This document shows positions 13,950 through 18,954 of a stretch of DNA of 64,000 nucleotides, in pieces. The notes under the pieces were generated by a model that made no database searches, was not told where the DNA came from, and was given only the letters and a program-made list of their open reading frames with translations. The stretch lies in IMG/VR virus record IMGVR_UViG_3300049472_000168, positions 1-64,000 of that record; one strand, written 5' to 3'. This stretch comes from a virus (Duplodnaviria; Caudoviricetes). Position numbers and translations under genes: made by a program. Within the stretch, counting starts at the first letter, position 1; each line of letters starts with the position of its first letter.

Positions 13950-15569
13950 CTAGCTCCTGGAGAAGTCTGAGATGATCTGAGGTGTAGAGGTATCGAATCC
14001 ACAGATATCCATCATACCGGCATCGTCAGGATTCGCAATAGAGAATTTCGTTGCCGAAGTCGCGATTACTACCAATTTGGCTGGGATCCCAGTCTTTTGG
14101 CGATAATTCTCGATTTCCTTAGAGGCGTGGCGACCAGTATTGGTCTCGTTGTCGGTGTAGACGCAGAAGGTGTCTACGGCCACTTTATTTTTTGCTGCCC
14201 ACTGCATCGGTAGCGAGCAGTCTGTAGCACCGAAAGCGTTATTATGGCATTTTTCCATGGCATCGGACAGACTCATCCCAGGACGAATCTTAAGATCCCG
14301 GAAGGTGTCGGCAAAACCCATGATGTGGTGATTCTGTTCTACGGCTGCCGTAACCATAGACATTGCAGCGGTGGCTTCGTAAGGCCTAATCGGCATCCCT
14401 GCGATACTGTCGGAAGTCATAGACCCCGAAACATCCAGGGCCAGAAGAGTATTCTTCCCCGTCGGCTCCACAGCACCGAAGCTGAGGTAAAAAGCGTCAT
14501 CCAGTGCCTGGACCACACCTTGATCCGGAGTCCAGACCAGGCTTCCTTTAACCCCATGACCGCTGCTGTAGGTCTTCAAGGCAACCAAGACCTGAAGAGG
14601 ATGGACCCTGCCCTTCTTCAAGACCTCCAGGTCGGTGAGCTTGGCTTTGGCCATCTTCTGAGCCGCTGACATCGGCTTGATCAGTCCGATTTCAGTCATC
14701 TTGCCGAGATTTCGGATTAAAGCCGTAGGTCCCATAGCAGGAAGCATGGCAGCCCAGACCTCGGGGTAATTCCGCATCTCTGATGGGATACATTCATGAG
14801 GAAGCTGGTAGGTATCGATGAGCTTGACCAGTTCTTTGACATCCGACTTGGTCTTCATCTGCTTGGCTCGCTCGAAGGCCCAGATCATTTGTAGATCTGA
14901 ATTAGGATGAGGGACCTCGCCTACACTATCCCAACCCTTCATGACCCAGTGCATTACCTCTTTTTGGGAAGCATCCAACTCGTGGTGGACTCCGGGGTGG
15001 GCCAGACGCAGGGCAGTCTTGTGGTTTTCTCCGTTTCGGTTCTGGTACTTTGCCACCTGATAGGCGAATTGTTTCGCCGGGCGATCCATATACCAGCGTG
15101 TGATGGCTCGCATAAATCCGGAACCGAAGCCTCCGAGTTCACGGACTGCTGAGATGTACTGAAGGATATGGGTTCCAGTACGGCAAACCTTGGGGAGGAC
15201 AGAATACGCCATTGCTCGGGTCTCCGGAGACTTCGCCAGCTTAGACGCCATAGCCAATGCAAAAATTGCGGGATCGTTCTTTGGAGCCCGACCACCATCG
15301 CTGATTTCGACGATTGTTTTGATCGTACGCGCCGGGTCTGATTCCAGACACCGCAGGACACAGGCCGCATTCTCTTTGGTCAGCTTCTTTTCGCCAACGT
15401 AATAGGTGCCACCCTCAGAGCCTAGGACTAAGAATCGATTCAGTCGAGCCCAGTCATCAACTTGGAAGACGAAGCCTCCTGTATTGTTGAGGACCTGCTC
15501 TGTGGCAGCCTTGATCTTGACTGAGGTGTTCTTATTGGTTTTTGTCGTCACATGTTTGGCGTATTGCAT
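13950..15569 (-). CDS. rsr: Ro60 / TROVE-domain RNA-binding protein (TROVE + vWA)
   Basis: NNTGGFVF..RLNRFLVLGSEGGTYY, KYQNRNG..H..LRLAHP, ALIRNLGKMT, RVHPL, LLALDVSGSM, GATDCSLPM, YTDNET, GFD. Confidence 0.96.
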   Translation of the reverse strand: MQYAKHVTTKTNKNTSVKIKAATEQVLNNTGGFVFQVDDWARLNRFLVLGSEGGTYYVGEKKLTKENAACVLRCLESDPARTIKTIVEISDGGRAPKNDPAIFALAMASKLAKSPETRAMAYSVLPKVCRTGTHILQYISAVRELGGFGSGFMRAITRWYMDRPAKQFAYQVAKYQNRNGENHKTALRLAHPGVHHELDASQKEVMHWVMKGWDSVGEVPHPNSDLQMIWAFERAKQMKTKSDVKELVKLIDTYQLPHECIPSEMRNYPEVWAAMLPAMGPTALIRNLGKMTEIGLIKPMSAAQKMAKAKLTDLEVLKKGRVHPLQVLVALKTYSSGHGVKGSLVWTPDQGVVQALDDAFYLSFGAVEPTGKNTLLALDVSGSMTSDSIAGMPIRPYEATAAMSMVTAAVEQNHHIMGFADTFRDLKIRPGMSLSDAMEKCHNNAFGATDCSLPMQWAAKNKVAVDTFCVYTDNETNTGRHASKEIENYRQKTGIPAKLVVIATSATKFSIANPDDAGMMDICGFDTSTPQIISDFSRS

Positions 15570-15609: not shown

Positions 15610-15737
15610 TGGAGAAGGATGGAATTGCACCACCGCTATCAGCTTGGATAAGATAATTATCTTCGCGGGGTCCGTGAAGGACAAAGATTTGAAGACAACG
15701 ATTTTGTGCCGACGTGCTACTACTACACAACTTCTCC
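15610..15737 (-). ncRNA. tRNA-shaped Y-RNA-like element A
   Basis: Acceptor GGAGAAG/CUUCUCC-A; D arm GUGU-AGUAGUA-GCAC; stem UCGGC/GCUGA enclosing a ~65-nt Y module; T arm GGUGG-UGCAAUU-CCAUC. Confidence 0.8.
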
Positions 15738-15746
15738 TAAAGTACC

Positions 15747-15813
15747 GCACCCCGCCCCGTATCGGAACCGATATTGGGAAACTACACACCCTTTAAAAGA
15801 TGTGCGGAGGTGC
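15747..15813 (-). ncRNA. Three-way-junction structured element within the ncRNA array
   Basis: GCACC../..GGUGC closing stem with hairpins GCACAUCUUU/AAAGGGUGUGU and UAUCGG/CCGAUA. Confidence 0.45.
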
Positions 15814-15815
15814 TA

Positions 15816-15875
15816 ACGAAATGCAAAGCCCGCCAGGGTTTGTAACCTGCTAAGGAGTCGAACCTTAGATTTCGC
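15816..15875 (-). ncRNA. Permuted (YrlA-like order) tRNA-mimic fragment
   Basis: GCGAAAU/AUUUCGU stem enclosing T arm CUAAGG-UUCGACU-CCUUAG, then a loop-closed acceptor-like hairpin CAGGUU-ACA-AACCCUG. Confidence 0.55.
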
Positions 15876-15877
15876 TG

Positions 15878-15996
15878 TCGCGACCGCTGGAATCGAACCA
15901 GCTCTACTATCTCCAAAAGATAACCGCCTTCAGTTGGGTCCTTGCGGACAAAAATCGAAGCCGGGTTTAAGTGTGCTACCGTTACACTACGTCGCG
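15878..15996 (-). ncRNA. tRNA-shaped Y-RNA-like element B
   Basis: Acceptor CGCGAC/GUCGCG-A; D arm GUGU-AACGGUA-GCAC; T arm GCUGG-UUCGAUU-CCAGC; Y module with GUCC-GCAA-GGAC at the anticodon position. Confidence 0.8.
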
Positions 15997-16000
15997 TAAA

Positions 16001-16057
16001 GAGGACAAAATCGATGCCGGTGTTTTCTAAGCATGATAAACCGACATCAGGGTCCTC
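16001..16057 (-). ncRNA. Minimal free-standing Y-RNA-like element D
   Basis: GAGGAC-CC-UGAUGUCGGU-UUAUC-loop-ACCGGCAUCG-AUUUU-GUCCUC; same module as A/B/C in non-permuted order. Confidence 0.75.
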
Positions 16058-16058
16058 C

Positions 16059-16191
16059 GGTGGAGATGGTTGGACTTGCACCAACGTCCTCGTCTTTACA
16101 ATGAGATAACTATCTTCGATTGGGTCCAAAAAGTTAAATGGACAAAAATTTGAAGACAGATTTTCGCGCTCTGCTACTGAGCTACATCCCC
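16059..16191 (-). ncRNA. tRNA-shaped Y-RNA-like element C (Ala-like acceptor)
   Basis: Acceptor GGGGAUG/CAUCUCC-A-CC; D arm GCUC-AGUAGCA-GAGC; T arm GUUGG-UGCAAGU-CCAAC; Y module insert. Confidence 0.8.
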
Positions 16192-18876: not shown

Positions 18877-18954
18877 AGAGAGACCTAGGAATCGAACCTA
18901 GCTGTGACGGTCGTCTTAACGGTGCCGTTTGCCTACCCGCTCGGCCAGTCTCTC
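18877..18954 (-). ncRNA. tRNA-like RNA lacking a canonical anticodon loop
   Basis: Acceptor GAGAGAC/GUCUCUC; D arm GCC-GAGCGGGUA-GGC; T arm CUAGG-UUCGAUU-CCUAG; central AACG-GCAC-CGUU. Confidence 0.65.

What the first reader, a model, noticed from the sequence alone, without database searches (positions are those of the whole stretch)
16001..16057. 57-nt minimal Y RNA in the non-permuted orientation, with the metazoan-type UUAUC motif
Seen: the same module occurs free-standing with the strands in reverse order (GAGGAC-CC-UGAUGUCGGU-UUAUC...ACCGGCAUCG-AUUUU-GUCCUC). Both permutations therefore coexist in one locus, which independently supports the fold. All four copies place UUAUC immediately 3' of the upper stem. 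Known: UUAUC at this position is a conserved feature of vertebrate Y RNAs and nematode stem-bulge RNAs; element C reads AGUUAUCUCAUUG, close to the human Y1 segment as I recall it. Inference: a phage Y RNA class linking bacterial and animal Y RNAs.
Basis: partly seen in the sequence, partly recalled or inferred. Interest (0 to 1): 0.85.

Follow-up and report, generated by a model that had tools for sequence, protein, structure and literature searches.

The report
Miniature Y RNA beside phage Ro60
A 57-base hairpin just upstream of a phage's Ro60 gene is a real but divergent member of a large family of miniature Y RNAs that sit beside Ro60 genes in bacteria and phages and share a bulged stem and a UUAYC motif with animal Y RNAs. 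I found no description of this family in the papers I could search.

Summary
On the minus strand, 16057-16001 folds as lower stem, CC bulge, 10-bp upper stem, UUAUC, 13-nt loop (-20.7 kcal/mol, z -4.2). It lies 3-4 nt from tRNA-like RNAs on either side, 430 nt upstream of a full-length Ro60 gene.

- **Family membership:** a covariance model built only from unrelated Ro60 loci finds this element as its single hit in the 64-kb window (24 bits, E 0.003). Over 240 other Ro60 loci the model gives 244 hits, all on the Ro60 strand, with strong covariation.
- **Motif:** UUAUC (53%) or UUACC (35%) follows the upper stem.
- **Rfam:** seven family members, five from bacterial genome assemblies (MAGs), pass Rfam's cut-off for nematode stem-bulge RNAs. 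Element D matches no Rfam Y, sbRNA or YrlA model.

The Y-RNA reading is supported. The claim of a phage class linking bacteria and animals is only partly supported:
- The family is not phage-specific.
- The motif is the YUAY already published for YrlA.
- This clade's GGACCC variant is the less animal-like one.

Expression could not be tested. Earlier follow-ups in this scan report the same two RNA types on other DNA. Verdict: new member of a known kind, moderate interest.

The parts
16001..16057 (-). Element D, the free-standing mini-Y hairpin. Lower stem 16057-16052 / 16006-16001; CC bulge 16051-16050; upper stem 16049-16040 / 16021-16012; UUAUC 16039-16035; loop 16034-16022; AUUUU bulge 16011-16007.
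   Evidence: Sequence; fold z -4.16; model R1 hit 16058-16000, 24 bits, E 0.003, the only hit in the window.
16061..16191 (-). tRNA-like RNA with the Y module (3' strand, loop, 5' strand, UUAUC) in place of the anticodon loop. Its 3' end lies 3 nt before element D.
   Evidence: Rfam tRNA 40.7 bits with a 72-nt insertion; motif at 16105-16127.
15878..15996 (-). Second tRNA-like RNA with a Y module. Its 5' end lies 4 nt (UUUA) after element D.
   Evidence: Rfam tRNA 32.7 bits with a 61-nt insertion; motif at 15919-15941.
15610..15737 (-). Third tRNA-like RNA with a Y module.
   Evidence: Rfam tRNA 38 bits; motif at 15652-15673.
13950..15569 (-). Ro60/Rsr gene (539 aa), the presumed protein partner.
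   Evidence: Pfam TROVE 9.9e-35 and vWA_Ro60 8.6e-58. Best solved relative is Xenopus Ro60 1YVP at 1.5e-120, then human RO60 and D. radiodurans Rsr.
15738..15877 (-). Structured spacer of unknown role inside the array; contains a T-arm-like hairpin.
   Evidence: Sequence only; no Rfam match above noise.

Best explanation
Element D is a minimal Y RNA: the Ro60-binding module alone, with no effector (tRNA-like) domain.

Proposed mechanism:
- It is co-transcribed with three tRNA-shaped Y RNAs and the phage rsr (Ro60) gene from the minus strand (inferred from arrangement).
- It is freed as a roughly 57-65-nt RNA when host tRNA-processing enzymes cut out its neighbours. RNase P would act at the 5' end of the downstream tRNA-like RNA. 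A 3' endonuclease plus trimming would act at the end of the upstream one (inferred).
- It then binds the phage Ro60 through its bulged helix (GGAC-CC... / ...UUUU-GUCC) and the adjoining UUAUC (inferred).
- With no tethering domain, it most likely acts as a plain gate or cap on Ro60, or as a competitor of the tRNA-shaped Y RNAs. It is unlikely to recruit a nuclease itself (inferred).

Shown here: the fold, family membership, conservation and covariation, linkage to Ro60 and its strand, and tight packing against tRNA-like genes.
For: 1. Ro60 gene 430 nt downstream on the same strand.
2. Model R1 was built from 39 hairpins of other Ro60 loci, none from this clade. Its only hit in 64 kb, both strands, is exactly this element.
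3. R1 gives 73+90+81 = 244 hits in 240 other Ro60 loci, every one on the Ro60 strand.
4. Covariation on 85 distinct sequences: 17 of 18 pairs show changes on both sides. Score 0.566 against 0.214 in shuffles (0 of 500 reach it) and 0.07-0.14 in slid controls.
5. Orthologous free hairpins sit right after the first tRNA-like RNA in the loci whose Ro60 is 67% identical: L010 130-210 and L105 149-233. L009 (68%) has one at 45-131, but its contig starts inside the preceding element. Their upper-stem sequences differ but still pair, and UUAUC is kept.
6. Motif after the stem in 106 non-seed hits: UUAUC 56, UUACC 37, other 13.
7. Spacers to the tRNA-like neighbours are 3 and 4 nt here. In other loci at least 43 of 214 mini hairpins lie within 12 nt of a tRNA or tRNA-like gene.
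8. Published precedent: Y RNAs are encoded next to rsr on the same strand; YrlA is an RNase P substrate in M. smegmatis; phage Yrl1/Yrl2 bind phage Ro60 (PMC4201824, PMC12135203).
Against: - A discrete RNA and its ends are therefore unproven.
- D lacks the CGAA/GNCGAA motif that Chen 2014 link to Rsr binding.
- D scores only 24 bits with R1, whose E-values are rough.
- It matches no Rfam Y, sbRNA or YrlA model.
- The genome search with R1 on the phage record returned nothing, unlike cmsearch.
- No clear promoter was called directly upstream of the array.
- Binding to Ro60 is not testable with these tools.
Confidence: 0.7

Rival explanations
1. It is a cis-acting element of the rsr leader rather than a separate RNA. 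It would be a Ro60 operator through which the protein feeds back on processing, stability or translation of its own polycistronic transcript.
For: The whole array lies in the 659-nt gap between an upstream ORF and rsr on one strand. No strong promoter or terminator was called inside it.
Against: The same hairpins also occur downstream of Ro60 and up to 2.5 kb away (hits at locus positions above 4100). They are often flanked by true tRNAs at 1-12 nt, which favours excision as separate RNAs. Known Y RNAs are stable trans-acting RNAs (PMC4201824).
Confidence: 0.15
2. It is a decaying duplicate: a Y module left behind when a tRNA-shaped Y RNA lost its tRNA body, with no function of its own.
For: It is the most divergent of the four modules. 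It has no GAAG in the upper stem and a weak R1 score.
Against: A free hairpin follows the first tRNA-like RNA in L010 and L105 (Ro60 67% identical). L009 (68%) carries one too, though its contig starts inside the preceding element. Upper-stem sequences differ but pairing and UUAUC are kept. Free hairpins are the commonest form family-wide.
Confidence: 0.06
3. It is a transcription terminator, attenuator or processing spacer between two tRNA-like genes.
For: It is a stable hairpin followed by UUUA.
Against: The stem is bulged, only three U follow it, and the terminator scan did not call it. Sequence-level conservation of GGNCC and UUAYC across 244 copies is not expected of a terminator.
Confidence: 0.03

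Closest known systems
YrlB of Salmonella Typhimurium, and Yrl1/Yrl2 of Thermus phage phiLo (Chen 2013/2014, PMC4201824; PMC12135203)
   Same: Short Y-like RNAs encoded beside rsr/Ro60 whose 5' and 3' ends pair into a bulged stem. YrlB has no tRNA-like domain, and none is mentioned for Yrl1/Yrl2. The phiLo RNAs lie upstream of the phage Ro60 gene and bind it in vitro.
   Different: Those RNAs carry the CGAA/GNCGAA motif and D does not (it reads GGACCCUGAUG). YrlB orthologues were found only in Salmonella serovars. I could not compare sequences directly because none is held.
YrlA (Rfam RF02553; Chen 2014; structure in Wang 2018)
   Same: The same Ro-binding stem followed by the conserved YUAY (here UUAUC). 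Encoded next to rsr on its strand. Model R1 also hits the YrlA of Gordonia phage Cashline and the small hairpins of mycobacteriophage Alice (sequences).
   Different: YrlA carries a tRNA-like domain between the two strands of the stem and D has a 13-nt loop. RF02553 does not match D. It gives only 15 bits on the neighbouring tRNA-like element.
Vertebrate Y RNAs and nematode stem-bulge RNAs (Rfam RF00019, RF01656; PMC4726728, PMC4450293)
   Same: Ends paired into a lower stem, a pyrimidine bulge on the 5' strand, a larger U-rich bulge on the 3' strand and a 9-10-bp upper stem, with UUAUC starting the loop. The spacing from GGNCC to UUAUC is similar: 11-13 nt here, 12 nt in Y1 (primer sequence in PMC3928194). 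Relatives of D reach 38-50 bits on RF01656, whose cut-off is 38.
   Different: D matches neither model. It is not a pol III transcript with an oligo-U tail for La. It lacks GGUCCGA. The animal motif has been tied to DNA replication assays, not to Ro60 binding.
Deinococcus radiodurans Yrn1
   Same: A bacterial Y RNA whose paired ends bind Rsr.
   Different: Yrn1 is longer, with a PNPase-binding, partly tRNA-like loop domain (PMC4201824). It was not compared by sequence here.

Membership tests
Y RNA in the functional sense (Ro60 partner RNA) | Encoded close to, and on the strand of, a Ro60/Rsr gene (the criterion of Chen 2014 for bacteria and phages) | tested here: met
   Ro60 ORF 15569-13950 on the same strand, 430 nt downstream.
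Y RNA in the functional sense (Ro60 partner RNA) | 5' and 3' ends pair into a helix with bulges on both strands | tested here: met
   6-bp lower stem, CC bulge, AUUUU bulge, 10-bp upper stem; z -4.16. Aligned to the R1 structure.
Y RNA in the functional sense (Ro60 partner RNA) | Conserved 5'-strand motif GGUCCGA (animals) or GNCGAAN0-1G (bacteria) | tested here: not met
   D reads GGACCCUGAUG. The clade variant GGACCC is confined to the window and to L009, L010 and L105.
Y RNA in the functional sense (Ro60 partner RNA) | Bound by Ro60 in vivo or in vitro | not testable with these tools
   No RNA-protein tool is available, and no RNA runs could be reached.
Mini-Y hairpin family defined here (model R1) | Significant match to a covariance model built without this clade | tested here: met
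   24 bits, E 0.003, full length 1-63, the sole hit in the window. The E-value is rough.
Mini-Y hairpin family defined here (model R1) | UUAYC directly 3' of the upper stem | tested here: met
   UUAUC at 16039-16035. In the family, 93 of 106 non-seed hits carry UUAUC or UUACC.
Rfam Y_RNA (RF00019) | Score at or above the gathering cut-off of 38 bits | tested here: not met
   No match at E<=10 on 65 nt. A relative, L134, reaches 25.7 bits.
Rfam nematode sbRNA (RF01656) | Score at or above the gathering cut-off of 38 bits | tested here: not met
   No match for D. Seven relatives do pass, at 38.2-50 bits: L134, L076, L220, L225, L204 (two) and L248.
YrlA (RF02553) | tRNA-like D, acceptor and T arms between the strands of the Ro-binding stem | tested here: not met
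   The loop is 13 nt and RF02553 gives no match.

The most novel reading that the evidence does not exclude
The bulged helix plus UUAYC is one ancient Ro60-recognition unit, shared by descent between bacterial or phage mini-Y RNAs and animal Y RNAs and stem-bulge RNAs. Ro60 and its RNA would have moved together between domains, possibly carried by viruses. On this reading the animal UUAUC motif, so far tied only to DNA-replication assays, originally served the Ro60 particle. This phage clade would show the module in three wirings: free hairpin, the published YrlA order, and normal tRNA order.
Probability: 0.35. Interest if true: 0.8.

Novelty: new member of a known kind. Interest (0 to 1): 0.55.

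Why it matters
Y RNAs are the obligate partners of Ro60, a major human autoantigen, and what their conserved parts do is still debated.

This element adds one more phage Y RNA, which is unremarkable on its own. Following it up showed three further things:
- Short Ro60-linked hairpins with the same stem and UUAYC motif are very common in bacteria and phages.
- The public YrlA and Y_RNA models do not reach their cut-offs on them in the loci scanned.
- Some of them are similar enough to nematode stem-bulge RNAs to pass that family's curated threshold.

This gives a simple bacterial or phage system for testing what UUAUC does: one protein and a 57-nt RNA. It also bears on whether bacterial and animal Y RNAs are homologous. 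Finally, it warns that Rfam-based annotation may label bacterial Y RNAs as nematode sRNAs.

Tried and rejected
- **Rfam on the element itself:** the 1-kb region and the element alone gave no Y_RNA, sbRNA or YrlA match for D.
- **Rfam downstream of the mycobacteriophage Alice Ro gene:** only noise.
- **Phage database:** blastn of the array found nothing. All phage Ro60 proteins there are at most 44% identical.
- **Viral contigs:** a single-protein scan found nothing; the alignment-based scans worked.
- **The genome search on the phage's own record:** model R1 returned nothing although cmsearch finds D. I treat that as a miss of the tool's first-look filter. RF02553 gave only a 15-bit match there.
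- **Papers not held:** the supplements of Chen 2014 and the reviews by Sim and Wolin. I therefore could not check whether tRNA-ordered or mini Y RNAs are mentioned there.
- **RtcB:** not found in the phage record, which is 84% complete, so an RtcB-linked repair role is not supported here.
- **Terminator reading:** considered and rejected.
- **A/GUG-CAC/U upper-stem motif:** D has AUG/CAU, but a 3-bp degenerate match in a 10-bp stem is expected by chance, so I give it no weight.

Full report
**1. What is there.**
The window is the first 64 kb of a 138-kb IMG/VR phage record. Its genes in this region are replication genes: DnaB, Toprim, RecA-like, DnaE and a methylase.

The 659 nt between a 96-aa ORF and a 539-aa ORF on the minus strand hold no credible gene. 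The 539-aa protein is a complete Ro60: TROVE 9.9e-35 and vWA_Ro60 8.6e-58. Its best solved relative is Xenopus Ro60 at 1.5e-120, ahead of human RO60 and Deinococcus Rsr.

Rfam's tRNA model matches three stretches of the gap: 16191-16061, 15996-15878 and 15737-15610. Each has a 61-72-nt insertion where the anticodon loop should be. ARAGORN calls none of them a tRNA.

The finding, 16057-16001, lies between the first two. It is separated from them by 3 and 4 nt.

**2. The observation.**
The MFE is -20.7 kcal/mol with z -4.16.

GGACCC-N9-13-TTATC occurs four times in the window, all on the minus strand within 476 nt, against 0.18 expected. In the three tRNA-like RNAs the 3' strand of the module comes first, a short loop closes the GUCC/GGAC stem, and the 5' strand plus UUAUC follows. 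In the free element the order is reversed.

**3. Is it a member of something real?**
The closest Ro60 proteins (67-68% identical) lie on short metagenome contigs: L009, L010 and L105. These carry the same kind of array upstream of Ro60.

In L010 and L105 a free hairpin sits directly after the first tRNA-like RNA. L009 also has one, but its contig starts inside the preceding element. The upper-stem sequences differ but still pair, and UUAUC is kept.

A regex-and-pairing census over 168 Ro60 loci showed such modules overwhelmingly on the Ro60 strand. Free hairpins number 170 against 28 on the other strand, and permuted modules 97 against 3.

I then aligned 39 free hairpins, none from this clade, and built covariance model R1.
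- R1 has one hit in the whole window on both strands: 16058-16000, 24 bits, E 0.003.
- Over 80 viral, 80 metagenomic and 80 bacterial-genome Ro60 loci it has 73, 90 and 81 hits. All 244 are on the Ro60 strand.
- On 85 distinct sequences, 17 of 18 base pairs show changes on both sides. The covariation score is 0.566, against 0.214 for shuffles and at most 0.135 for slid controls.
- R1 also recovers the small hairpins and YrlA of known actinophages: Alice, and Cashline for the YrlA (sequences).

**4. The UUAUC question.**
Among 106 hits that were not seeds, the five bases after the upper stem are UUAUC in 56, UUACC in 37 and something else in 13.

It is not new for bacteria, though. Chen et al. 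2014 describe a 'conserved YUAY' that begins the V loop of YrlA. Wang et al. 2018 show that its UA forms a kink and is conserved.

What the present data add is that the motif is kept in hairpins with no tRNA-like domain at all. It therefore belongs to the Ro-binding module rather than to the tRNA mimic.

In sbRNAs and vertebrate Y RNAs, UUAUC sits at the same place, the 5' end of the loop. Y1 begins GGCTGGTCCGAAGGTAGTGAGTTATCTCAA.

**5. How animal-like is the family?**
A typical member (L134:54-121) scores 50 bits on Rfam's nematode sbRNA family RF01656 (cut-off 38) and 25.7 bits on Y_RNA (cut-off 38). The alignment covers both stems, the bulges, GGGUUAUC and ACUUG.

Six more members pass the RF01656 cut-off. 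One is on a 102-kb viral contig. Five are in bacterial assemblies, including a 14-Mb Caldilineaceae contig and a 2-Mb Chloroflexia contig.

Element D is the less animal-like variant. It has GGACCC instead of GGGCCGA and matches no Rfam Y, sbRNA or YrlA model even at E<=10 on 65 nt. The GGACCC form is confined to this small clade.

The extra similarity of the neighbouring element to Y1 (AGUUAUCUCA) is not kept in the relatives' tRNA-like elements. I regard it as chance.

**6. Mechanism.**
- **Shown:** the fold, family membership, covariation, Ro60 linkage, and tight packing against tRNA-like genes.
- **Inferred:** the array is transcribed with rsr, and processing of the flanking tRNA-shaped RNAs releases the hairpin with a few extra bases. 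Spacers of 1-12 nt to tRNAs or tRNA-like genes recur in at least 43 of 214 small hairpins elsewhere. M. smegmatis YrlA is an RNase P substrate.
- **Inferred:** the RNA binds the phage Ro60 by its bulged helix and UUAUC. Having no effector domain, it acts as a gate or competitor rather than a tether.

The phage record has no RtcB, so a repair-operon role is not indicated. A role with a host exonuclease, as proposed for phage phiLo, is possible but untested.

**7. Limits.**
- No expression data could be obtained.
- R1's E-values are rough.
- The genome search with R1 missed the element.
- No strong promoter was called just upstream of the array.
- The key reviews and the Chen 2014 supplements are not held, so 'not described' means not found in the searchable library.

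**8. Context in this scan.**
Earlier follow-ups report the same two RNA types, free hairpins and tRNA-ordered chimeras beside Ro60, in other phages, giant viruses and bacteria. My census agrees. My tRNA-like detector found 151 distinct long tRNA-like RNAs, 121 of them carrying the module motif.

**9. Verdict.**
This is a real Y-type RNA and a new, divergent member of a known kind. The link to animal Y RNAs is real at the level of the wider family, but it is neither specific to phages nor best shown by this copy.

Noticed in passing
L134:54-121, L076:4245-4317, L220:1641-1715, L225:1414-1483, L204:1070-1141, L204:1905-1974, L248:2264-2332: Hairpins beside bacterial and phage Ro60 genes pass the curated cut-off of Rfam RF01656, a nematode sRNA family, at 38-50 bits. 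Rfam-based annotation would mislabel them.
   Followed up: partly
window 15738-15877 (minus strand): A 140-nt structured stretch between the second and third tRNA-like RNAs. It contains a T-arm-like hairpin (AAGGUUCGACUCCUU) but no Y module, and no Rfam match above noise.
   Followed up: no
L069:461-522 and L069:542-967: A viral contig carries a mini-Y hairpin (51 bits with R1) 20 nt upstream of a tmRNA gene (Rfam 113 bits), inside a tRNA cluster.
   Followed up: no
L253, L232, L259 (bacterial MAG loci): Ro60 genes labelled Myxococcota and Deltaproteobacteria sit inside dense tRNA arrays, with more than ten tRNAs in 6.6 kb. Mini-Y hairpins and tRNA-shaped Y RNAs are interleaved among them.
   Followed up: partly
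L105:170-200, L009:65-95, L053:2348-2372 and others: In many mini-Y hairpins UUAUC can pair with a downstream GAUAR. That would form a short apical helix set off from the upper stem by a 2-3-nt bulge, yet the motif stays fixed in sequence rather than covarying. Seen by eye only.
   Followed up: partly
window, L009, L010, L105: The GGACCC form of the 5' strand, in place of GGGCCGA, is confined to the loci whose Ro60 is at least 67% identical to the window's. This hints at co-variation of protein and RNA.
   Followed up: partly
window 18877-18954 (minus strand): My tRNA-like detector flags a 78-nt element with acceptor, D and T arms that ARAGORN did not call as a tRNA.
   Followed up: no
window 13950-15569: By sequence the phage Ro60 is nearer to Xenopus and human Ro60 (407 and 377 bits) than to the Ro60 of Thermus phage phiLo (21 bits).
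   Followed up: no
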